Source: a virus (Duplodnaviria > Caudoviricetes). Taken from it: a stretch of 64,000 bases of DNA. Location of the stretch: IMG/VR virus record IMGVR_UViG_3300034095_001474, positions 128,001 to 192,000 of that record; one strand, 5' to 3'. Position numbers and translations under genes: made by a program. The first letter of the stretch is position 1; every line of letters starts with the position of its first letter. The notes beneath the pieces were generated by a model. That model was not told the origin of the DNA. It saw nothing but the letters and a program-made list of their open reading frames with translations, and ran no database searches. Shown here in pieces: positions 19,092-42,718 of this stretch.

Positions 19092-19535
19092 TTAAAAAAT
19101 CTCTGCTGTTATATAAGTAGTTGTAGTTTCAAAAAGTATTTCTCTTCGCTTTAACCAGTCCCCTATATTGTTAAGTGTTTTTAATTGTATACCCCAAATA
19201 TAATCAACTTGAAGTGTCTTTGGGTACTCTTTTAATTTGTTTCCCCAACCTTGCCCTCTGATTTCTTTATCAACAACCAACAACACACCTTCAATACCTT
19301 TTAACCCATCATATTTTTCGTTTGACCAGAATGAATATAATTGATTATTACCCAAAAGATACAACCCTTTTATTTTATCTTCGTCATCCAATATGATTGC
19401 TGATATATCCCAATTGGTTTCCTCTTCTATAATTGTAAAAAAATATTTTTTGTAGATAACATGTTTAAAATATTGAAAAGACCATTGCATGGCTTCTAAT
19501 CTCATTTCTTGTGGAATTCCGTATCTAATGTTCAT
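19092..19535 (-). CDS. GNAT-like acetyltransferase
   Basis: LLVVDKEIRGQGWGNKL acetyl-CoA binding motif. Confidence 0.6.
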   Translation of the reverse strand: MNIRYGIPQEMRLEAMQWSFQYFKHVIYKKYFFTIIEEETNWDISAIILDDEDKIKGLYLLGNNQLYSFWSNEKYDGLKGIEGVLLVVDKEIRGQGWGNKLKEYPKTLQVDYIWGIQLKTLNNIGDWLKRREILFETTTTYITAEIF

Positions 19536-20019
19536 AACCAGTAATTTCAAAAAATTGATAATCTCTTACTTTCCAAATTGAATCTAATTGTTGTATTGAA
19601 TATTTTATCTCACCCAACCATGGGTCTAAAACATTAAAAACATTTTCATCATACCCATTAACAATTATCCAGTGAGGAACACCTTTTGTTATTGTTCTAA
19701 GCATTGATACATTTCCACTATCTATGATTGTTCTTAGTAAATCATATGGGTGTGGCGATGATATGTATTCAATATAATTAAAATTTAATTTTTCCATACC
19801 TTTTTCCATTCTATCTGGTGGTGTACCTACAATCCAATCAGTACCACAAAAATGTGCGATATCTCTTATATCGTACTTCATTTCTATAAAACCATCAGAA
19901 TCTTTACACGTTCTGTAAATTATATTGTCTTTGTTCACCAAATAAAACCACACCATATAAATACATGTTGGTCCACATGTATTCCCAGTAGGTTGATAGA
20001 AATGTTTAATAGTTGTCAT
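19525..20019 (-). CDS. Peptidase C39-like cysteine protease
   Basis: YQPTGNTCGPTC (Q/C), PHWIIV (H), VLDPW (D). Confidence 0.75.
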   Translation of the reverse strand: MTTIKHFYQPTGNTCGPTCIYMVWFYLVNKDNIIYRTCKDSDGFIEMKYDIRDIAHFCGTDWIVGTPPDRMEKGMEKLNFNYIEYISSPHPYDLLRTIIDSGNVSMLRTITKGVPHWIIVNGYDENVFNVLDPWLGEIKYSIQQLDSIWKVRDYQFFEITGYEH

Positions 20020-20383
20020 TGAAGTCTTCGTCATAATAAGGTGAATCATCTTCATCGTCTTCTTCCTCATCAAAGTCATCATCTTCCTCACCAACGACAT
20101 TTTCCAATGTATCAAACCCTATAAAAACTCCAAATTCATCATTGAATAGTTTTTTAAATGTTTTTGCTTCATCATTTGTGATTTCATTAAAATCAATCTT
20201 AGATAATAAATCTTCACCACTAGAAAACTCCAACTCATCTTCACCCATATTGTGTGTAAATGGCCATGTGATGCTCAACGCTAATTCTTCGTATTCTTCG
20301 ACTTCTCTTTCTGTCATTACGATAAATCCGTTCACTTCAATCTCATCGATTGTGTCATTAAAAATTGCTAAAAATTTTGCCAT
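20006..20383 (-). CDS. Hypothetical acidic protein
   Basis: 125 aa with an Asp/Glu-rich tail. Confidence 0.6.
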   Translation of the reverse strand: MAKFLAIFNDTIDEIEVNGFIVMTEREVEEYEELALSITWPFTHNMGEDELEFSSGEDLLSKIDFNEITNDEAKTFKKLFNDEFGVFIGFDTLENVVGEEDDDFDEEEDDEDDSPYYDEDFNDNY

Positions 20384-20436: not shown

Positions 20437-21552
20437 TTATAAAAGTTTTTTAAAGTTCTCTATTTCTAACTCAACAATTTTGTCACCCAATTCTTTGCTT
20501 GGTTTCAAATTGAACTCTTTCATTACTTCTTCACCACTAACTGTAAGTTCAAAGTCTTCCAACGCATTTAACAAATTTCCAGAAATCATATTACGAATTC
20601 CAAAGTTAAATAACTGTTCACTAGATATGTCACTTTTAATCAACGATTTTTTCAACGTAACAGCAGTATCTATTTGTTCAATAGTGTGCAGCGTTAATAA
20701 AAAACTTATTTTATTTATATCTGATGTTGGATGAGTCAATTTATTCAACTTTGTTGTTATAAAAGATAAATCATTATCTTTTAACAATGTAGCCAACACA
20801 AGTATTGGGTCTTTTTCATCAATAAAGTTTTTGTTAATAACCATGTTTGGGAATATCCAATCAAACAAATTAAACGTATCCAACAACTCCATAAACTTGA
20901 TTACAGATTTAGCTGATTTCAAACCTTTGATGAACTCATCTCTGATTCTTTCAGCTGATATACCTTCCAAGCTGCTATCTAGAATAAGTGTAAGTATTAT
21001 ATCTTTGGATAAAACACCATCAAATCTACTTACAAATCTTATCGCTCTAAGAATACGTAACCTATCTTCTTCAAATCTTTCAGCAGCATCACCAACAGTT
21101 CGTATTATACCCTTTTTAAGGTCTTCAACACCACCAACCATATCAACTATTTCAGATGTATCTAAATCAAAAAATAATGCATTAATCGTTAAATCTCGTC
21201 TCAATACGTCACCTTCTATTGTTGTAAATTTAACGCTGTCTGGTCTACGACCATCTGAACCAATATCCTCACGAAAAGTTGCAATTTCGAATTCATCTGT
21301 ATCTGTAAATACGTTGATAACACCGAAAGCTTTCCCAGTAGCAAGTGTTCTAAGACCAGCTTCTTCCATCATCGATTCAACCTTATCTGGAATAGCATCA
21401 GTAGCTAAATCCCAATCTTTTGGGACTTTTCCTAACAATGCATCACGTATGCTGCCACCAACGATAAATAATTTAAAACCGTTATCACTAAAGATACGGT
21501 GTATAATTTTAATATCGTTTGGTACTTCTAGTTCAAATTTTATTCTTTCCAT
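20437..21552 (-). CDS. cca: CCA-adding tRNA nucleotidyltransferase (class II)
   Basis: VGGSIRD...KDWDLAT, EIATFR, RRDLTINAL, EDRLRILRAIRF. A poly(A) polymerase assignment cannot be fully excluded. Confidence 0.85.
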   Translation of the reverse strand: MERIKFELEVPNDIKIIHRIFSDNGFKLFIVGGSIRDALLGKVPKDWDLATDAIPDKVESMMEEAGLRTLATGKAFGVINVFTDTDEFEIATFREDIGSDGRRPDSVKFTTIEGDVLRRDLTINALFFDLDTSEIVDMVGGVEDLKKGIIRTVGDAAERFEEDRLRILRAIRFVSRFDGVLSKDIILTLILDSSLEGISAERIRDEFIKGLKSAKSVIKFMELLDTFNLFDWIFPNMVINKNFIDEKDPILVLATLLKDNDLSFITTKLNKLTHPTSDINKISFLLTLHTIEQIDTAVTLKKSLIKSDISSEQLFNFGIRNMISGNLLNALEDFELTVSGEEVMKEFNLKPSKELGDKIVELEIENFKKLL

Positions 21553-21631
21553 AATACAAATGTAATCATTTTATTTTAATAAAACAAAAAAACCCAGACA
21601 AAAATCTGGGTTTAATTATTTTTTAATAAGA

Positions 21632-22048
21632 TTAGGCTACTTCAACTACTTCTAAATCGAAGATTAAGTCTTTACCAGCCAATGGGTGATTAGCATCCAA
21701 AACAACAGTGTTTTCTTTTATCTCTGCAACTACAACCATCATTTGACCTTGTGGTCCTTCAGCTGTTAATTGATGTCCAACTTCAACACCTTCTGGTACA
21801 AATTGTTTTTCCACTTCTTGAGTCATTTCTTCTCTGATTGGACCATAAGCTTCATCAGATGGAATAGTGATTGTTCTTTTCTCACCAGCTTTTAAACCTT
21901 GTAATCCTTTTTCAAATCCAGGGATTAATAAACCTTTCCCTAATTCAACCGCTAATGGGTCTCTACCTTCTGATGTGTCAAAAACTGTGTTGTCTTCTAA
22001 TCTTCCAGTGTAATGTACTTTAACATTACTGTTTTCTGTTACTGTCAT
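21632..22048 (-). CDS. slyD: FKBP-type peptidyl-prolyl isomerase (SlyD-like)
   Basis: VKVHYTGRL...FDTS...LIPGFEKGL...AYG...DANHPLAGKDLIFDLEVV. Confidence 0.93.
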   Translation of the reverse strand: MTVTENSNVKVHYTGRLEDNTVFDTSEGRDPLAVELGKGLLIPGFEKGLQGLKAGEKRTITIPSDEAYGPIREEMTQEVEKQFVPEGVEVGHQLTAEGPQGQMMVVVAEIKENTVVLDANHPLAGKDLIFDLEVVEVA

Positions 22049-22088
22049 ATTTTTTATTTAAGTTAAAATTATTTTAGCAAATATACGA

Positions 22089-22508
22089 TTAAATTTCTGG
22101 TTTGTCAACATAATTTACAGATATTTTTTTAAGTTCAATGATTTTATTCATATATTCAACATTTTTCACAGCATCTGTTGTTAAATTACCACGTAAATGA
22201 CTAAAGAATATATTGATAGCTTTGAAATGTTTGATTGAAACAGCTTCATCATTATGGTATATACTTTTAAAAAAGAAATAGTCTTTCCATGTTCTTTTTA
22301 AGTCATCACTACCATATCTAAACACTTTACGTACTGTTGATTCAGTAGTGTTATCACTTTTTATAGTTATTTTAGTAACGTATAATTCACCATCAACGTC
22401 AAATGGTATTATTTTGAATAATTCACTTTTTTTATTTTTGAATAAGTGTAATTCTGATTTAGTTAAATAATTTTTAACTTCTAATTGTTTTTCTTCTATA
22501 GTTTTCAT
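22089..22508 (-). CDS. Hypothetical protein
   Basis: 139-aa ORF downstream of the amber minigene. Confidence 0.55.
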   Translation of the reverse strand: MKTIEEKQLEVKNYLTKSELHLFKNKKSELFKIIPFDVDGELYVTKITIKSDNTTESTVRKVFRYGSDDLKRTWKDYFFFKSIYHNDEAVSIKHFKAINIFFSHLRGNLTTDAVKNVEYMNKIIELKKISVNYVDKPEI

Positions 22509-22591
22509 AATGTCTATGTTTTTAAATTTATTTTATAATTTTCGTAGTACTTGGACACGATGTCCTAGTAAATGTCCTAGTTAAAATAAAT

Positions 22592-22618
22592 TTAAGGAGG
22601 TGCTTTAATCTAATTCAT
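22592..22618 (-). other. Minigene ATG-AAT-TAG-ATT-AAA-GCA-CCT-CCT-TAA (M-N-amber-I-K-A-P-P)
   Basis: Read directly from the sequence; begins 11 nt after the stop codon of the Pth2-like gene. Confidence 0.6.
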
Positions 22619-22629
22619 AATCTATAGTT

Positions 22630-22974
22630 TTAGTTATTGTTATTTTTACCCAATAGAGGACACGAACTAGTAATTTTTTTACTAGCATCAGATGGTTCAA
22701 AAGCTATTGCGGTAATTTCGTTATTGATGTCTGGCTCTCGGAATATAGTATATTTAATTCCTCTGATTGCAGCTTTCTCTGAGAGTTTATATAACTCTTC
22801 CTCATTTGCTACTGTTAATAATGCCAAATAATTTGATTTTGTTTGCCATTCTGACGCTTCTTTAGGATGAGCGTGCTGAAAATCAATGGCAGCATGTGCT
22901 GATTGCACTGCTTGTGTTGGTAATGATAAGTCACGTCTTGTGACAACTCTTAATTTTGAAATCTAATTTTTCAT
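22630..22974 (-). CDS. Pth2-like peptidyl-tRNA hydrolase with an in-frame TAG at codon 4
   Basis: ATG AAA AAT TAG ATT TCA ... gives MKN*ISKLRVVTRRDLSLPTQAVQSAHA...W...L..V.....L......FREPDINNEITAIA. The conserved first strand lies upstream of the annotated GTG start at 22908. Confidence 0.75.
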
Positions 22975-23024
22975 TTTCTTTTTTATATAAATATATCACT
23001 TTTTTTAAAAAGGTAAACCTTTTG

Positions 23025-23095
23025 TGGTCTTAGAGGGAATCGAACCCTCACTATCGGTTTTAGAGACCGTTACGCTGCCGTTACATCATAAGACC
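23025..23095 (-). tRNA. Amber-suppressor tRNA (anticodon CTA)
   Basis: GGTCTTA/TAAGACC acceptor with A73; ACGGT CT-CTA-AA ACCGA arm; GAGGG TTCGATT CCCTC T arm. Confidence 0.9.
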
Positions 23096-23107
23096 AAATC
23101 TATAGTG

Positions 23108-23138
23108 CAAATATACTAAAGATTTTTTAATTTGTCAA
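23108..23138 (-). promoter_or_regulatory. Bacteroidota-type promoter of the tRNA-CUA gene
   Basis: TTG-N20-TATATTTG. Confidence 0.72.
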
Positions 23139-23140
23139 CT

Positions 23141-23413
23141 TTATTCTTCAGAATCTTCAACTCTATATGAATATTCTTCATTATTTATTTTATCTCTAAT
23201 AATATCTTTCTCAACTAATTCATCTGATAATGAGTCATAATACTGTTCATTTTGAGGTTTCATTTCAGATGAATTACCTTCTAGATAATCAATTATTTCA
23301 TCGTTGGTCAACTTTTCTAATTCTGGATATTCATCCAAATCAATTGTGATTGGTTCTCGTACAATATATGTTGTATACGACTCTGTTTGATAAATTTTAA
23401 CTTTTCTTCCCAT
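23141..23413 (-). CDS. Hypothetical acidic protein
   Basis: 90-aa ORF. Confidence 0.55.
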   Translation of the reverse strand: MGRKVKIYQTESYTTYIVREPITIDLDEYPELEKLTNDEIIDYLEGNSSEMKPQNEQYYDSLSDELVEKDIIRDKINNEEYSYRVEDSEE

Positions 23414-23418
23414 AGTTT

Positions 23419-23982
23419 TTATTTTAATAAAGTTTTACCTAATCTTAATACTTTTGCTTTGAATTCTTCAAATGTACCGTTGTTTTCAATTATAACATCA
23501 GCACATGATTTATCAATGTTGAATGAACTTGCATCTTCGTTTGGTAATCTATCTGAAGCATCTACCCAAATAACCAAATCAAAAATACCTTGTCTTAAAC
23601 ATTCTTCGATTTCATCTCTGTCACGCATTCCTACATAACAATCAGAACGTTCTAGTATGCCTTTGGCTAATCTTGCTCTATCATCTTTGTTATAGTCGCA
23701 AATAGCTAAATACCATTCTTCTCTGTGATTCACTCGGTCCTCAAAACATTCTTCTGGTGTTTTGTAACCATACTTACCCTTTAACTCGTCATACAAAAAA
23801 ATATTTGCTGCTGATTGAGATGAAGACTCGAATGTATACCCAAATTCCTCATTAAACATTTCAGCTAAAGTATCTTTTCCATGTCGCATGTTACCGATAA
23901 TCAATAACTTTGGTTTTTTCTTTTTAGATAACTCTAAATCTTCAAGGTGTTCCCTTAACATGTTTTGTCCTATTCCTCCCAT
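23419..23982 (-). CDS. Deoxynucleoside-monophosphate kinase-like P-loop protein
   Basis: IIGNMRHGKDT Walker A; GMRDRDE. Confidence 0.65.
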   Translation of the reverse strand: MGGIGQNMLREHLEDLELSKKKKPKLLIIGNMRHGKDTLAEMFNEEFGYTFESSSQSAANIFLYDELKGKYGYKTPEECFEDRVNHREEWYLAICDYNKDDRARLAKGILERSDCYVGMRDRDEIEECLRQGIFDLVIWVDASDRLPNEDASSFNIDKSCADVIIENNGTFEEFKAKVLRLGKTLLK

Positions 23983-23999
23983 TTTATTTTAGTTTTAAA

Positions 24000-24257
24000 T
24001 TAATCCCATTCTTCAAATGTCTGTTCTCTATTTTCGATTACACAAAGTAACCCTTTCAATATGTCGCAGTGATAAGTAATAAAGTTACCTTCAATATTCA
24101 TAACTGTGTTAACACCTAAAGCTGTGAAAAACTTTTCATTGTCAATATCATATTTTTCTAAGATAGCCATTATCTCACTACCCATGAATCCTTGTACATA
24201 TTTAGTTGGGTAATCATAAACAAATTCCTCAACATTTTCACTAGTTAATTTTTCCAT
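24000..24257 (-). CDS. Hypothetical protein
   Basis: 85-aa ORF with its own TTG-N20-TACATTTG promoter at 24262-24292. Confidence 0.6.
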   Translation of the reverse strand: MEKLTSENVEEFVYDYPTKYVQGFMGSEIMAILEKYDIDNEKFFTALGVNTVMNIEGNFITYHCDILKGLLCVIENREQTFEEWD

Positions 24258-24301
24258 ATTACAAATGTACTAAAAGTTTTTCGATTATACAAATTTTTAC
24301 A

Positions 24302-27952: not shown

Positions 27953-28978
27953 CTAATTAGTTTGATGTGTTGCAACATTTTTTGTTAATTTTTCTTTTAA
28001 ATCGATAATTATCGATTTAACTTCATCATCAACACTTTTTGGCATATAAACGCCCAATGTAATCAATAAGTCACCTCTACCATCTTTACCGTATGTTTTT
28101 ATACCTTTATAAGGGATTCTAAGGTTGTTTCCAACATCACTATACTCTGGAATACTAATTCTTATTTTAGAACCCTCTATCGTCTCTATTTCGATTTTAT
28201 CACCCAATACTAATTGAGGATAAGATAACTTTAAGTTCATTTTTAAATCAGAACCAGACCTAGTGTATGTTTTATGTGGTGCTTCATGAATTTTTATATG
28301 TAAATCACCTTCATTACCACCCTTTACCCCATGACCTTTACCAGACATAACAAATGTCATTCCTTCTATAACCCCAGCTGGTATATCAACTTCAACATTT
28401 TCAACTGTATCAACCAAACCATAACCACTACATGTTTTACATTCTTTGGTATAAGAATTACCTATACCATTACATGCAGTACATGTAGTTACTTGTTGAA
28501 TTTGACCCATTGGTGTGTTGTATATATTTACAACATGTCCACTACCACCACACATAGAACAATCAACAATATCTTCACCACCATGACCTTTACAAGTTCC
28601 ACATTTTGCTTTTCTATTATATTTGTATGTTTTTTTAGTACCAGTAAATATTTCTTCAAGTGTTAATTTAACTAGAAGTGACATATCGGCACCAACGATA
28701 GTTTGAGGTTGGGTATGAAAACCACCACGGAAATGGTTTCTACCACCAAATGGTGAACCTTGTTGATTACCATTTGAATGACCAAATCTATCGTATTTAT
28801 TTTTCTTATCTGAATCTGACAATGTATCATAAGCTTCAGATATCTCTTTAAATTTATCTTCAGACCCACCTTTATCTGGATGATGCTCTTTTGCTAGCTT
28901 TCTATAAGATTTTTTAATTTCATCAGATGTAGCACCTTTTTTAAGTCCTAAGACTTCATAATAATCTTTTTTGCTCAT
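27953..28978 (-). CDS. dnaJ: DnaJ chaperone
   Basis: J domain with HPD, four CxxCxGxG repeats and a C-terminal domain. Confidence 0.96.
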   Translation of the reverse strand: MSKKDYYEVLGLKKGATSDEIKKSYRKLAKEHHPDKGGSEDKFKEISEAYDTLSDSDKKNKYDRFGHSNGNQQGSPFGGRNHFRGGFHTQPQTIVGADMSLLVKLTLEEIFTGTKKTYKYNRKAKCGTCKGHGGEDIVDCSMCGGSGHVVNIYNTPMGQIQQVTTCTACNGIGNSYTKECKTCSGYGLVDTVENVEVDIPAGVIEGMTFVMSGKGHGVKGGNEGDLHIKIHEAPHKTYTRSGSDLKMNLKLSYPQLVLGDKIEIETIEGSKIRISIPEYSDVGNNLRIPYKGIKTYGKDGRGDLLITLGVYMPKSVDDEVKSIIIDLKEKLTKNVATHQTN

Positions 28979-30066: not shown

Positions 30067-30305
30067 TCAACAAATAAATTTTCCAATTTTTTAACCAATT
30101 CTGTTATTTTAACATTGTTGGTTAAAATTCTTGTTTCAACATGTTCTGGTATGTTCACAACATATTCTGATTTCAATTTTGAGTTCTCTCTTTGTAGTTT
30201 ATCGCTCTCTCTTAGGTATTCATCATATAGTTTACCTTTATCTTCTCTAGTCATTACATTTACATTTACCATTTGGGTTATTACCACAATCACATGGTTT
30301 TTCAT
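30063..30305 (-). CDS. Hypothetical coiled-coil protein
   Basis: 80-aa ORF; the start may be further downstream (MTRED). Confidence 0.5.
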   Translation of the reverse strand: MKNHVIVVITQMVNVNVMTREDKGKLYDEYLRESDKLQRENSKLKSEYVVNIPEHVETRILTNNVKITELVKKLENLFVD

Positions 30306-30654
30306 TTAGAATTTCTGCCATTTTAGCAATTTCTTCAACAATTTCTTCGTCAGTCATATCAATTTCTTCATCTAAAACGTTGATATCTTCAGCAATAGCA
30401 AAACTTTTCTTGATGTCTTGAACCATTTCATTTATTTTAGACATATCAGCTTCAGCAACGATTGATGGATTGATGCACTCAACTCTTTCTTCACCTTTTG
30501 TTGGAATAAAGAATGCCATTGCGTTTGCATTTTTATGTATCAACATAGTGTTTATTGATTCAGCAAATGGTTGGATAATTTCTTTAACTTTCATCATTTC
30601 TGCATCTAAGTAAAAGACAAGCACCATCGGATAATTTGTTTCATTTTCTTTCAT
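30247..30654 (-). CDS. Hypothetical protein
   Basis: 135-aa ORF with a Cys-rich tail. Confidence 0.6.
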   Translation of the reverse strand: MKENETNYPMVLVFYLDAEMMKVKEIIQPFAESINTMLIHKNANAMAFFIPTKGEERVECINPSIVAEADMSKINEMVQDIKKSFAIAEDINVLDEEIDMTDEEIVEEIAKMAEILNEKPCDCGNNPNGKCKCND

Positions 30655-41080: not shown

Positions 41081-42718
41081 CTACTTATTATTTTTTGATT
41101 CAATTATTCTTTTAACTGCATCCATTGATAAACCAGTCTTTTTAGCAATTGTTTTGTAAATTTTGTTTTCATCTAAAGAAGGTGCACTTACATTTCCTTT
41201 TGTTTTCTCAACACTAACTACACCATCAATAGCACCAGAACTACAACCAGAACCAGCTGGTTTATTGTTTAAATCAACACAGTCGTTAAATTTAACGAAT
41301 CCACCATTGTTTAATTGTGTTTCTTTGAAAGCATTTGGTTTTTTAGCTAATCCCTCAAAAACTACTGGTACATTTGTAACTATCGGCATTTCTTTTTTAA
41401 TTGGTTTAGCACTTAATTTAGTAGTATAATCAAATCCACGTCCACCAGTATTCGTAGCACCACCACCAAGTGACATTTCATCAATACCCTTATCGAACAA
41501 TCTGTATTGTCCAACTGGTTCTTTAACTGGTTCTTTTATTGGAACTATTTTTGATTTTAATCTATCTATTGTTGATTGGTCTGTTGATTGGTCTGCTTTT
41601 TGAGTTGCGACATCATTTGCCAAATCACGTGCATCAAATCTAGCAGTATCTTGGTCACGTGAGGTTTTTTGTGTGTCGTATAAAGCTTTAGCAGTTGTTT
41701 GTGATAAACCTTGACCCATTTTTCTTTGAATGAATGCTTCTTCATCTTCACCATGCATTTCATTCAATGGTTCTTCATTAAACTTCATTTTTCGTAAAAA
41801 TGCAAGAAAATCTATATTTTCTTCTTGATTAGGGTCATATTTAATACTTAAAACCCAATTTTTTAAATCTTCATCAAATTTATTGATGTTCATTCCATCA
41901 TGCCAACCTTTGATACCTTCACCTACACTTAATTCACCTATATTTTTATTAACATAATTTTTAATAGCTTCGTTTGTTCTTTCGTAATCACCATATTCAT
42001 AGTCAATATCATTATCAGTTTCATCACCAACTGGTTCTTGTTGTAATTCACCACCAGTTATTTCTTTATTAAAAATATCATCTATGAACGGATGATAATA
42101 AAAAGAATAGTATTCACCATCAGAACCTTCTAAAATAGCAATTTCTTCATTAAATACAACAACAGCAAAACTTAATTGTTGTTGTCCTTCTTCTTCATCT
42201 AATTCACCAGTAACTTCACTATCTTGTTCACCACCACTAATCATTTGTGATAATTCATTTTCGATTGTTTGTTTAGCTTCTTCAGCTGAACCTAAATCTC
42301 TAGATATACTATATTTACCATCTTTTTTAATGATAAGTCCTTTTGATTCCAATTCACCATAAATTTCATCATAACTTAAACCATTTTCAGACCAAAATTC
42401 TGAATAACTATAAAGATTTTTTATTAGCTCTAATGTTTCTTGTTTTAAATCACCATTACTAGTAGATTCATGAATTGGAGGTTTAGGTACTAGTGTTTTA
42501 CCGAATTTACTTAGTTTAGACGTAGGCACCCCTTTAACTGTTACATTTTTTTTAATATTAAAATCAGTAGAGACCTCACCCAAATTTTTAATTTCTTTAC
42601 CAGCAAATCCTTTTTTAAAAGTATTATCTACTATATTTTTTTTAAGTTTTGGAAAACCTTCCTTTAAAAGATTTGTAATTTTGTCAAATTGTTCTTTGGT
42701 GATTTTTATTTTTTTCAT
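41081..42718 (-). CDS. Acidic protein, probable head-internal/core protein
   Basis: Many (I/L)xE motifs; ends in tandem TAG TAA. Confidence 0.55.
   Translation of the reverse strand: MKKIKITKEQFDKITNLLKEGFPKLKKNIVDNTFKKGFAGKEIKNLGEVSTDFNIKKNVTVKGVPTSKLSKFGKTLVPKPPIHESTSNGDLKQETLELIKNLYSYSEFWSENGLSYDEIYGELESKGLIIKKDGKYSISRDLGSAEEAKQTIENELSQMISGGEQDSEVTGELDEEEGQQQLSFAVVVFNEEIAILEGSDGEYYSFYYHPFIDDIFNKEITGGELQQEPVGDETDNDIDYEYGDYERTNEAIKNYVNKNIGELSVGEGIKGWHDGMNINKFDEDLKNWVLSIKYDPNQEENIDFLAFLRKMKFNEEPLNEMHGEDEEAFIQRKMGQGLSQTTAKALYDTQKTSRDQDTARFDARDLANDVATQKADQSTDQSTIDRLKSKIVPIKEPVKEPVGQYRLFDKGIDEMSLGGGATNTGGRGFDYTTKLSAKPIKKEMPIVTNVPVVFEGLAKKPNAFKETQLNNGGFVKFNDCVDLNNKPAGSGCSSGAIDGVVSVEKTKGNVSAPSLDENKIYKTIAKKTGLSMDAVKRIIESKNNK

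What the first reader, a model, noticed from the sequence alone, without database searches (positions are those of the whole stretch)
22592..22618. Amber minigene M-N-TAG-I-K-A-P-P-TAA after the Pth-like gene
It repeats the AAT-TAG-ATT context of the Pth gene's internal amber, which argues against chance. Without suppression it is a 2-codon minigene. Such minigenes (lambda bar) cause peptidyl-tRNA drop-off that Pth must recycle, and here the trapped tRNA would be tRNA-Asn. With suppression it ends in Pro-Pro-stop, a known termination-stalling motif. It is followed by a CTAGGACAT direct repeat and a hairpin (about 22548-22581) in front of the next gene, so it may be a cis sensor of suppression or release-factor activity (inference).
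Basis: partly seen in the sequence, partly recalled or inferred. Interest (0 to 1): 0.75.

Follow-up and report, generated by a model that had tools for sequence, protein, structure and literature searches.

The report
Amber-gated stalling leader peptide in phage
The tiny "minigene" is a real, conserved leader peptide of a lake-water giant phage. It can be read to its proline-rich end only if the stop codon UAG is read through, so it most likely lets the next gene be translated only when the phage's own UAG-reading tRNA is working.

Summary
On the minus strand, 22618..22592 reads ATG AAT TAG ATT AAA GCA CCT CCT TAA, followed by a direct repeat and a hairpin.

It is not a chance ORF. The same frame precedes 24 of 28 distinct loci that encode homologues of the downstream 139-aa gene (22508..22089). 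Those loci carry 17 different peptides, with the consensus M-x-TAG-I-x(0-2)-[R/K]-x-P-(P/T/N)-stop.
- TAG is invariant.
- Changes at the conserved codons are synonymous.
- Length changes come in whole codons.

The peptide is therefore read through the amber codon.

The leader's stop codon opens a long-range helix of 10-17 bp. There are 12 co-varying versions. The other strand lies 2-27 nt before the main AUG.

The element follows the downstream gene, not Pth2. About half the loci have a tRNA gene upstream instead.

Best reading, by inference: only ribosomes that pass UAG reach the [R/K]xPP-stop. The phage tRNA(CUA) that starts the same operon could supply the read-through. At that motif the ribosomes pause, melt the helix and open the start site of the next gene.

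The lambda-bar / tRNA-Asn drop-off reading is not supported.

Caveat: this window has Lys where RAPP arrest peptides need Arg.

The scan has met this class before on other DNA. I found no published description.

The parts
23110..23138 (-). Promoter-like site (TTGACA, 17 nt, TATATT; 11 of 12) in front of the tRNA(CUA); probable start of the operon
   Evidence: Consensus scan only; not evidence of function.
23024..23095 (-). tRNA with anticodon CUA (amber suppressor). No CCA is encoded. It is the candidate reader of the two TAG codons downstream.
   Evidence: ARAGORN; Rfam tRNA 60.1 bits. A tRNA(CUA) lies upstream of Pth2 in L001-L006 and L012/L013.
22630..22974 (-). Pth2-like gene with TAG as codon 4 (ATG AAA AAT TAG ATT...)
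   Evidence: Pfam PTH2 E 7.9e-10; the profile starts at residue 7. An early TAG at codon 3-5 is kept in 10 of 11 related loci.
22592..22618 (-). Leader uORF: ATG AAT TAG ATT AAA GCA CCT CCT TAA (M-N-amber-I-K-A-P-P-stop)
   Evidence: Sequence. The frame is conserved in 24 distinct loci, with 17 peptides and synonymous-only change at the conserved codons.
22582..22595 (-). 5' strand of long-range helix P1 (UUAAAUUUAUUUUA). It starts at the last base of the final Pro codon and contains the uORF stop codon.
   Evidence: Present in the MFE structure of every leader folded. 12 distinct fully paired versions. Covariation test.
22572..22580 (-). First copy of the direct repeat CTAGGACAT; unpaired duplicate of the 5' arm of hairpin P2
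   Evidence: Sequence. Relatives keep two copies that change together with the hairpin's 3' arm. Role unknown.
22548..22570 (-). Hairpin P2: 10-bp stem with one mismatch and a 3-nt loop. Its 5' arm holds the second copy of the repeat.
   Evidence: Folds. 5 of 10 pairs show changes on both sides across 17 leaders.
22522..22535 (-). 3' strand of helix P1 (UAAAAUAAAUUUAA), at -27..-14 from the main AUG
   Evidence: Cognate duplex -10.0 kcal/mol against a null mean of -4.2; 0 of 70 control start regions of the window do as well.
22511..22519 (-). Third repeat-like copy (ACATAGACA) just before the main start codon
   Evidence: Pattern search. Also present in L001, L002 and L022, with a one-base variant (ACATAGAAA) in L027. 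Role unknown.
22089..22508 (-). Regulated gene: 139-aa protein of an unnamed family (N-terminal MKTxEQK, conserved Y-L-x-K-T-S-K-H-L-F). Function unknown.
   Evidence: No Pfam or PHROG hit. 137 cluster representatives at E<=1e-3. Model pLDDT 91 with no fold match.

Best explanation
The minigene is a translated leader peptide that makes translation of the downstream 139-aa gene depend on read-through of UAG.

Shown:
- The frame M-x-UAG-I-x-[R/K]-x-P-P-stop is conserved as a coding frame across the amber codon.
- Its stop codon and the next ~12 nt form a co-varying helix (P1) with the A-rich region just upstream of the main AUG.
- A tRNA(CUA) gene heads the same gene string.

Inferred:
- A ribosome that meets release factor 1 at UAG (codon 3) ends about 9 nt short of P1. 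The helix stays closed and the SD-less start site of the next gene stays masked.
- A ribosome that decodes UAG, presumably with the phage tRNA(CUA), runs 5-6 codons further. It pauses on the [R/K]-x-Pro-Pro-stop motif, either by slow Pro-Pro bond formation or slow termination after Pro, in the manner of RAPP-like arrest peptides.
- While paused it sits on the 5' strand of P1. This frees the start region, or hands the terminating ribosome on to the main AUG.

The element thus reports the balance between suppressor tRNA and release factor. Together with the amber-gated Pth2 gene, it licenses a second product of the operon only when suppression works.
For: (1) Conservation as a coding frame.
- WIN, L001, L002 and L030 differ only by GCA/GCT and by CCT/CCC/CCG/CCA.
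- L022 and L034 differ by CGA/AGA and CCA/CCG.
- 8- and 9-codon forms differ by whole codons.
- There are 14 nucleotide versions in the first 18 leaders, and 17 peptides once searches are added.

(2) TAG is invariant in all 24 distinct leaders. In the window, TAA ends 78 of 86 called ORFs and TAG only 5.

(3) Linkage to the downstream gene. The leader lies 73-102 nt before the AUG in the 18 closer loci, whether Pth2, a tRNA or another ORF is upstream.

(4) Helix P1.
- It is in the MFE structure of all 18 closer leaders.
- There are 12 distinct helices, with A-U, G-C, G-U and U-A at position +3.
- The cognate duplex is -8.5 to -11 kcal/mol against a null mean near -4.3. None of 70 control start regions does as well in most cases.
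- 84.6% of cells are paired, against 31-46% with slid partners. The covariation score is 0.159 against 0.072+-0.013, reached by 0 of 500 shuffles.
- In L043, L045 and L047 the helix includes the main AUG itself.

(5) Geometry. Masking a ribosome footprint at TAG leaves the main start region as closed as in free RNA (mean unpaired probability 0.50 to 0.52). Masking one at the uORF end opens it to 0.82.

(6) Window genes lack Shine-Dalgarno motifs: 6 of 71, against a background of 13.6%. They have A-rich leaders, so structure is the plausible control point.

(7) The motif matches published arrest cores. RAP/RGP sits in the P site with Pro in the A site, and Gly, Pro and Ser are tolerated at the middle position (PMC10951233, PMC12992588).

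(8) The tRNA(CUA), the amber-gated Pth2, the leader and the gene lie head to tail between a promoter-like site and a terminator-like site.
Against: - No expression or ribosome data exist for this uncultured phage, and no RNA run was listed.
- Stalling is not shown. The window's motif is K-A-P-P, and in ApcA, ApdA and ApdP the Arg could not be replaced by any residue (PMC12992588). The pause here may therefore be weak, or may depend on Pro-Pro-stop rather than on the RAPP mechanism.
- The peptide is only 8 residues long, shorter than the tunnel contacts used by known RAPP peptides.
- In the window, P1 ends 13 nt before the AUG, so masking of the start site is partial. The modelled opening is only 0.31 to 0.60.
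- In the most distant leaders (L043, L046-L048, L050) the helix is not better than controls by the duplex test.
- The amino acid carried by the tRNA(CUA) and its activity are unknown.
- The role of the direct repeat and of hairpin P2 is unexplained.
- The function of the regulated protein is unknown.
Confidence: 0.65

Rival explanations
1. Suppression-gated termination-reinitiation shuttle without programmed arrest. Ribosomes that read through UAG simply terminate at the leader's UAA. They reinitiate at the main AUG, which helix P1 holds close to the stop codon. The prolines only tune termination and are not an arrest module.
For: P1 is anchored on the stop codon (it starts at -1 or -2) whatever lies between the R-x-P and the stop. 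Lys replaces the Arg that published arrest cores need. The peptide is very short.
Against: The strong conservation of [R/K]-x-P-(P) at the amino-acid level, with free third positions, is not needed for a mere shuttle. The permitted middle residues (A, G, P) are those that support RAPP-type arrest.
Confidence: 0.2
2. Bar-like drop-off minigene. The functional product is the 2-codon ORF ATG-AAT-TAG. It releases dipeptidyl-tRNA(Asn) that the neighbouring Pth2 must recycle.
For: Two sense codons before a stop, as in lambda barI/barII (own knowledge). It lies next to a Pth2 gene in the window. The window also holds three tRNA-Asn genes.
Against: Codon 2 varies (Asn, Met, Lys, Ile, Leu) and L043 has four sense codons before TAG. 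The stop is always TAG, never the commoner TAA. The frame after TAG is under coding constraint. About half of the loci have no Pth2 directly upstream.
Confidence: 0.07
3. No translation is involved. The region is a conserved structured RNA or a protein-binding site (P1, P2, direct repeats), and the ORF is incidental.
For: P1 and P2 co-vary. The direct repeats change in concert. No ribosome data exist.
Against: The uORF lies mostly outside the helices, yet it keeps ATG, TAG, Ile, a basic residue and Pro-Pro. All four bases occur at the third position of the first Pro codon, AGA/CGA is exchanged, and indels come in whole codons. No Rfam family matches.
Confidence: 0.05

Closest known systems
RAPP/RGPP-type ribosome arrest peptides (ApdA, ApdP, ApcA; SecM with RAGP) upstream of sec/yidC genes
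   Same: A C-terminal basic-small-Pro-Pro core lies at the very end of a small upstream ORF. The paused ribosome would sit on one strand of a structure that masks the start of the next gene. The middle residues seen here (A, G, P) are those that support arrest (PMC10951233, PMC12992588).
   Different: The peptide is 8-9 residues rather than 50-170. It has no signal peptide or membrane anchor, so no pulling force can release it. An in-frame UAG lies before the core. The window has Lys where Arg is reported irreplaceable. It is phage-encoded, and the regulated gene is unrelated to protein export.
Short leader-peptide translational attenuators (ermC/ermB, cat, cmlA leaders)
   Same: The leader has fewer than 20 codons. 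A ribosome paused in it remodels mRNA pairing and exposes the start site of the next gene.
   Different: Those leaders need a ribosome-bound antibiotic as input. Here the input would be decoding of a stop codon. Here one long-range helix and a nested hairpin replace the four-segment alternative pairing.
Engineered amber codons in leader peptides (unnatural-amino-acid transcriptional switch built on the tna/trp leaders; reviewed in PMC6412442, section 6)
   Same: The logic is the same. The downstream gene is expressed only if the leader is translated beyond an inserted UAG by a suppressor tRNA.
   Different: That switch is synthetic and acts through Rho or transcription attenuation. This one is natural, phage-borne, and appears to act on translation initiation.
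Lambda bar minigenes (AUG-AUA-stop) and Pth
   Same: Without suppression this is a two-codon ORF, and in this window it lies next to a peptidyl-tRNA hydrolase gene.
   Different: Bar function lies in the two codons and in tRNA sequestration. Here the conserved part lies after the stop, codon 2 is variable, and the link is to the downstream gene.
Release-factor-sensing recoding sites (prfB in-frame UGA; tnaC Pro-stop stalling; AMD1 read-through followed by a C-tail arrest peptide, PMC13025110)
   Same: An in-frame stop codon serves as a sensor of termination efficiency, or read-through leads to an arrest at the next stop.
   Different: There is no frameshift site, no small-molecule ligand is known, and the read-out is a separate downstream cistron.

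Membership tests
RAPP-like arrest peptides (ApdA/ApdP/ApcA/SecM class) | Core R-[A/G]-P followed by Pro or Gly; Arg irreplaceable | tested here: not met
   The window has K-A-P-P. 12 of 17 peptide versions in relatives do have R-[A/G/P]-P. The Arg requirement is from PMC12992588.
RAPP-like arrest peptides (ApdA/ApdP/ApcA/SecM class) | [quoted passage not shown] | not testable with these tools
   Needs toeprinting, profiling or cryo-EM.
RAPP-like arrest peptides (ApdA/ApdP/ApcA/SecM class) | Arrest site placed so that the stalled ribosome disrupts a structure masking the start site of the downstream gene | tested here: met
   P1 starts at the last base of the final sense codon and pairs with -27..-14 of the main AUG. 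It co-varies. Footprint masking opens the start region.
RAPP-like arrest peptides (ApdA/ApdP/ApcA/SecM class) | N-terminal export signal or membrane anchor that releases the arrest by force (monitoring substrate) | tested here: not met
   The peptide is 8 residues in all.
Leader-peptide translational attenuation (erm/cat type) | Short translated leader ORF directly upstream of the regulated cistron, with a pairing that includes the regulated start region | tested here: met
   The uORF has 8-11 codons and ends 73-102 nt before the AUG in the 18 closer loci, with helix P1. Translation is inferred from coding-type conservation, not observed.
Leader-peptide translational attenuation (erm/cat type) | Stalling induced by a ribosome-bound antibiotic | not testable with these tools
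   Nothing in the sequence points to a drug. The regulated gene is not a resistance gene by Pfam or PHROGs.
Lambda bar-type minigene | Function resides in a 2-3 codon ORF ended by any stop; the sequence after the stop is irrelevant | tested here: not met
   The post-TAG frame is conserved at the amino-acid level and the stop is always TAG.
Lambda bar-type minigene | Toxic in Pth-limited cells through sequestration of the tRNA for the last sense codon | not testable with these tools
   The last sense codon before TAG varies (AAT, ATG, AAA, AAG, ATA, TTA), so no single tRNA is implicated.
Whole-genome TAG reassignment (code 15-type phages) | Many genes carry in-frame TAG, and TAG is not used as a stop | tested here: not met
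   In 64 kb only Pth2 and this leader have an internal TAG that continues a conserved frame. TAG ends 5 of 86 called ORFs, three of them clear genes with a back-up stop 1-9 codons on.

The most novel reading that the evidence does not exclude
The phage carries a natural sensor of the state of the genetic code. One operon makes an amber-suppressor tRNA. It then tests that tRNA twice: at codon 4 of Pth2, and in an arrest-type leader whose read-through unmasks the next gene. A protein family with no match to known folds (the KHLF-motif family, 137 clusters) is thus made only once UAG is being decoded. This would give a function to the so far target-less suppressor tRNAs of standard-code giant phages. 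It would also be the first natural riboregulator whose input is stop-codon suppression.
Probability: 0.5. Interest if true: 0.88.

Novelty: new variant of a known kind. Interest (0 to 1): 0.8.

Why it matters
Giant phages that use the standard code often carry amber-suppressor tRNAs with no known targets. The authors of the XacN1 genome paper state that they could not identify any (PMC5852040).

This element, with the amber-gated Pth2 gene beside it, provides concrete and conserved targets. It also suggests a mechanism: expression is licensed by read-through.

If confirmed, it would add a new input, decoding of a stop codon, to the list of signals read by leader peptides. It would be a natural counterpart of the engineered amber-in-leader switches used in genetic-code expansion. 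It would show that an [R/K]xPP core can act in an 8-9-residue peptide. It would also point to an uncharacterised protein family whose production the phage ties to suppression.

The design is compact, about 130 nt, and could be tested directly with reporters.

Tried and rejected
1. Anti-Shine-Dalgarno mimic. The minus strand reads CACCTCCTTA, like the 3' end of 16S rRNA, and the plus strand reads AAGGAGGTG, a perfect SD look-alike. Rejected because relatives have CTCCCCCTTA or CACCGCCTTA and the phage's genes do not use SD.

2. Whole-window TAG recoding. Rejected.

3. Direct repeat as a genome-wide motif or promoter. ACWTRGACA occurs 3 times in the window against 2.7 expected, two of them inside this leader, so it is local.

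4. DNA similarity to cultured phages. None for 21600-24300, and no tblastn hit for the 139-aa protein.

5. Exact-pattern scan of IMG/VR for ATGAAYTAGATHAARGCNCCNCCNTAA. It gave only the two loci already found. Homology to the downstream protein was the productive route.

6. Function of the 139-aa protein.
- No Pfam or PHROG hit.
- Two models, pLDDT 77.5 and 91.3.
- Foldseek against PDB, AFDB clusters, Swiss-Prot and the ESM atlas, plus VIA-align wide search, gave nothing above noise. The best Z was 5.2. Weak partial hits to barnase/EndoU/RelE-like nuclease domains had TM below 0.3.
- Two longer proteins in the hit list (P0094, P0116) matched no Pfam family. P0115 joins only the first ~55 residues to a histidine-kinase-type ATPase domain and may be a miscall.

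7. Intrinsic terminator between Pth2 and the next gene. None found. The hairpin has no T run.

8. Rfam. No family matches in the leader.

9. Expression. No RNA holder was listed. Only DNA contigs could be laid. One lake variant had 11 differences in the flanking genes and none in the 121-nt leader, which is suggestive only.

10. Amino-acid identity of the tRNA(CUA). Alignment with the window's tRNAs was not decisive.

11. A possible third amber-gated gene at 19525..20100 (TAG-ATA). The next ORF is in another frame, so this is an ordinary stop.

Full report
**1. What is in the sequence**

All genes in this part of the window run on the minus strand. Reading 5' to 3' on that strand, the order is:
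- a promoter-like site at 23138..23110;
- a tRNA with anticodon CUA at 23095..23024;
- a 114-codon gene at 22974..22630 that matches Pfam PTH2 (E 7.9e-10) and has TAG as its fourth codon;
- 11 nt later, the reported minigene ATG AAT TAG ATT AAA GCA CCT CCT TAA at 22618..22592;
- two copies of CTAGGACAT, the second forming the 5' arm of a 10-bp hairpin at 22570..22548;
- a 139-codon ORF at 22508..22089 with no Pfam or PHROG match;
- an FKBP-type prolyl isomerase gene, a terminator-like hairpin at 21613..21590, and a CCA-adding enzyme gene.

The window is 30.7% G+C and comes from a large phage of lake water. Its relatives are IMG/VR contigs of 120-360 kb, and the stretch is held by lake metagenomes of 14 studies.

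**2. TAG is not generally recoded here**

Under the standard code the window is densely coding. TAA ends 78 of 86 called ORFs, TGA 3 and TAG 5. Three of the five TAG-ended ORFs are clear genes, with a back-up stop 1-9 codons on.

Among all ATG-x(1-3)-TAG-[A/G]T[T/A] sites on both strands, only two continue into a conserved frame, namely Pth2 and the minigene. The suppressor tRNA therefore has two visible targets in 64 kb, and both are in its own operon.

**3. The minigene is a conserved coding frame that runs through the amber codon**

The two closest loci found through Pth2 carry the same peptide with only synonymous changes: GCA/GCT for Ala, and CCT/CCC/CCG for the first Pro. I then searched with the downstream 139-aa protein rather than Pth2, in three sources: IMG/VR, JGI metagenomes, and contigs that encode distant cluster representatives.

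This gave 28 distinct loci with enough upstream DNA, and 24 of them have the element.

The 17 peptide versions, with * marking the in-frame TAG, are:
- MN*IKAPP (the window and six other loci; four nucleotide versions)
- MM*IYRAPP, MM*IDRAPP, MM*ILRAPP, MM*IIRAPP
- MN*ITRAPT
- MM*IARPPN
- MK*IIKVPP, MK*IRKKPP, MK*ILKKPP
- MN*IAKQPP
- MI*ISRPP
- MK*IRPPT
- ML*ISRGP, MI*IIRGPT, ML*FIRGPT
- MRTK*IVSRGP

The following features are kept:
- The ATG.
- One sense codon before the stop (three in one case).
- TAG, always.
- AT[T/A] after TAG, in 23 of 24 leaders.
- A basic residue, a small or variable residue, then Pro.
- Zero or one further codon (Pro, Thr or Asn), then the stop.

The first Pro codon uses all four third bases. 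Arg is written AGA or CGA. The 8- and 9-codon forms differ by whole codons.

This is the signature of a translated peptide. It also means the amber codon is decoded.

The four loci without the element are:
- L024, where an HNH endonuclease gene (Pfam E 1.5e-6) has replaced the 5' half of the leader;
- three distant homologues that sit directly behind another ORF.

**4. The element belongs to the downstream gene, not to Pth2**

Directly upstream of the leader there is a Pth2 gene in about 11 distinct loci, a tRNA gene in about 11, and another small ORF in 3. In L003 that tRNA is tRNA-Cys.

In the 18 closer loci, the gap from the leader's stop codon to the AUG of the MKT-type gene stays within 73-102 nt.

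Pth2 has its own early amber, at codon 3-5 in 10 of 11 loci. This was the subject of another finding on this window (e1-5365194). The two elements share the start design ATG-x-TAG-AT[T/A].

**5. A co-varying long-range helix joins the leader's stop codon to the next gene's start region**

In every one of the 18 closer leaders, the minimum-free-energy fold pairs two segments. One begins at the last base of the final sense codon and contains the UAA. The other lies 2-27 nt upstream of the main AUG. In the window, 22595..22582 pairs with 22535..22522.

Evidence for this helix (P1):
- There are 12 distinct helices of 10-17 bp. They are paired throughout apart from one 3-nt bulge in L035. Position +3 is A-U, G-C, G-U or U-A, a one-base insertion in L021 is matched on the other strand, and further swaps occur at +7 to +13.
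- Cognate duplexes score -8.5 to -11 kcal/mol. The same 5' strands score about -4.3 on average against the start regions of 70 other genes of the window. In most cases none of the 70 does as well.
- On a plain MAFFT alignment, where three or four rows are out of register, 84.6% of cells pair against 31-46% when partners are slid by 1-3 columns. The covariation score is 0.159 against 0.072+-0.013, reached by 0 of 500 shuffles.
- The inner hairpin P2 also shows changes on both sides at 5 of its 10 pairs.

In more distant leaders the pairing takes other forms. In L043, L045 and L047 it includes the main AUG itself. In L043, L046-L048 and L050 the duplex test is not significant.

**6. Geometry**

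A ribosome with UAG in its A site has its P-site codon 21 nt (18 in the window) before the final stop. Its leading edge therefore ends about 9 nt (6 in the window) short of P1. A ribosome at the Pro codons or at the final stop covers the 5' strand of P1.

I modelled this by forbidding pairing within a footprint. The mean unpaired probability of -25..+3 of the main AUG was:

| State | 21 leaders | Window |
|---|---|---|
| Free RNA | 0.50 | 0.31 |
| Ribosome at UAG | 0.52 | 0.35 |
| Ribosome at the leader's end | 0.82 | 0.60 |

The genes of the window do not use Shine-Dalgarno sequences: 6 of 71 have one, against a background of 13.6%. They have A-rich leaders, with A enriched at -12, -11 and -3. 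This pattern is known from Bacteroidota (own knowledge). An unstructured leader is therefore likely to decide initiation.

**7. Mechanism proposed, and what is only inferred**

Shown: the coding-type conservation across UAG, the invariant UAG, the link to the downstream gene, and the co-varying helix anchored on the leader's stop.

Inferred:
- ribosomes pause at [R/K]-x-P-P-stop;
- the pause, or simply arrival at the stop, opens the start site or hands ribosomes to it.

The pause is plausible for three reasons:
- R-x-P-P with x = G, A, S or P was selected as an arrest motif, and such motifs are avoided in proteomes (PMC12992588).
- Pro-Pro and C-terminal Pro slow elongation and termination (own knowledge).

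The main caveat for this window concerns the basic residue. Arg could not be replaced in ApcA, ApdA or ApdP, yet the window's clade has Lys.

The Lys versions (KAPP, KVPP, KKPP, KQPP) always keep Pro-Pro-stop. The Arg versions tolerate Thr, Asn or the stop itself after R-x-P. This suggests two grades of the same device.

The direct repeat of the hairpin's 5' arm, and a third copy next to the main AUG, are conserved in concert but remain unexplained.

**8. Rivals**

- A bar-like drop-off minigene is disfavoured by three things: the variable codon 2, the exclusive use of TAG, and the constrained sequence after TAG.
- A pure RNA element is disfavoured by the codon-wise pattern of change.
- A read-through-dependent reinitiation shuttle without true arrest remains possible. 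It shares the same input logic.

**9. Comparison with what is known, and novelty**

The nearest natural relatives in mechanism are the RAPP-like arrest peptides and the erm/cat leader peptides. The nearest in logic is synthetic, namely amber codons engineered into leader peptides to make downstream expression depend on a suppressor tRNA (PMC6412442).

Five full-text searches found no description of a natural amber-gated leader. The XacN1 paper states that the targets of its CUA tRNAs could not be identified. Most subscription-journal papers are outside the library that was searched.

This scan has reported the same class before, on other phage DNA:
- e1-5208604
- e1-5368883
- e1-5378946
- e1-5363455
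- e1-5379223
- e1-5319524
- e1-5363444
- e1-5319433

I reached the reading before seeing those notes. They are not independent evidence.

I class the element as a new variant of a known kind: a leader-peptide or arrest-peptide riboregulator whose input is stop-codon suppression.

**10. The regulated protein**

The 139-aa product belongs to a family of 137 cluster representatives at E<=1e-3. The family has a near-invariant Y...H-L-F in the motif Y-L-x-K-T-S-K-H-L-F.

A deep-alignment model reaches pLDDT 91.3. Its order of elements is a helix, a four-stranded sheet, a helix (70-79), a short strand, then two more helices. It matches nothing above noise in PDB, AlphaFold DB or the ESM atlas.

Its neighbours are translation-related: Pth2, a CCA-adding enzyme, FKBP, tRNAs, and in L045 an ArfB-like RF-1-domain protein. 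Its function is unknown.

Noticed in passing
L024:137-592 (IMG/VR contig 3300017917_003339): An HNH endonuclease gene (Pfam HNH, E 1.5e-6) ends inside the leader. It replaces the uORF and the 5' strand of P1, and leaves the 3' half of the hairpin and the 3' strand of P1. This is a natural knock-out of the switch in front of an intact downstream gene.
   Followed up: partly
window 22089..22508 (-) and alignment A5: The regulated 139-aa protein belongs to a family of 137 cluster representatives with the conserved motif Y-L-x-K-T-S-K-H-L-F. The model is confident (pLDDT 91) but matches no known fold or family.
   Followed up: partly
L045:2014-2391: In a distant relative, a 125-aa RF-1-domain protein (ArfB-like peptidyl-tRNA hydrolase, Pfam E 3.9e-25) lies just downstream of the homologue of the regulated gene, which itself follows a Pth2 gene and an MI*ISRPP leader.
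   Followed up: no
window, 71 gene starts on the minus strand: Shine-Dalgarno-like 4-mers are depleted upstream of genes (6 of 71, against a 13.6% background). A is enriched at -12, -11 and -3. This hints at a host with SD-independent initiation, such as Bacteroidota.
   Followed up: partly
window 27953..28978, 30247..30654, 41081..42718 (-): The three clear genes that end in TAG each have a second in-frame stop 1-9 codons later (TAG TAA; TAG AGA AGA TAA; TAG plus 8 codons then TAA). This would limit damage from the phage's own amber suppressor.
   Followed up: no
window 22595..22603 (+) / 22603..22594 (-): The plus strand reads AAGGAGGTG, a perfect Shine-Dalgarno look-alike. The minus strand reads CACCTCCTTA, like the 3' end of 16S rRNA. 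Relatives do not keep it, so it is a by-product of the Ala-Pro-Pro codons.
   Followed up: yes
L003:3574-3644, L004:3592-3661, L005:3587-3662, and the upstream flanks of L021, L022, L025, L026, L033, L034, L037, L042, L047, L048: In many relatives a tRNA gene sits directly in front of the leader. It is tRNA-Cys(GCA) where ARAGORN could call it; one copy was called with a two-base anticodon. The mRNA 5' end there may be made by tRNA processing.
   Followed up: no
window 23024..23095 (-) and 20437..21552 (-): The tRNA(CUA) gene does not encode its CCA end. A phage CCA-adding enzyme gene lies 1.5 kb downstream, so the suppressor may depend on a phage enzyme for maturation.
   Followed up: no
window 22509..22629: A variant contig from another lake study differs from the window at 11 places in the flanking Pth2 and 139-aa genes, but at none in the 121-nt leader region.
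   Followed up: partly
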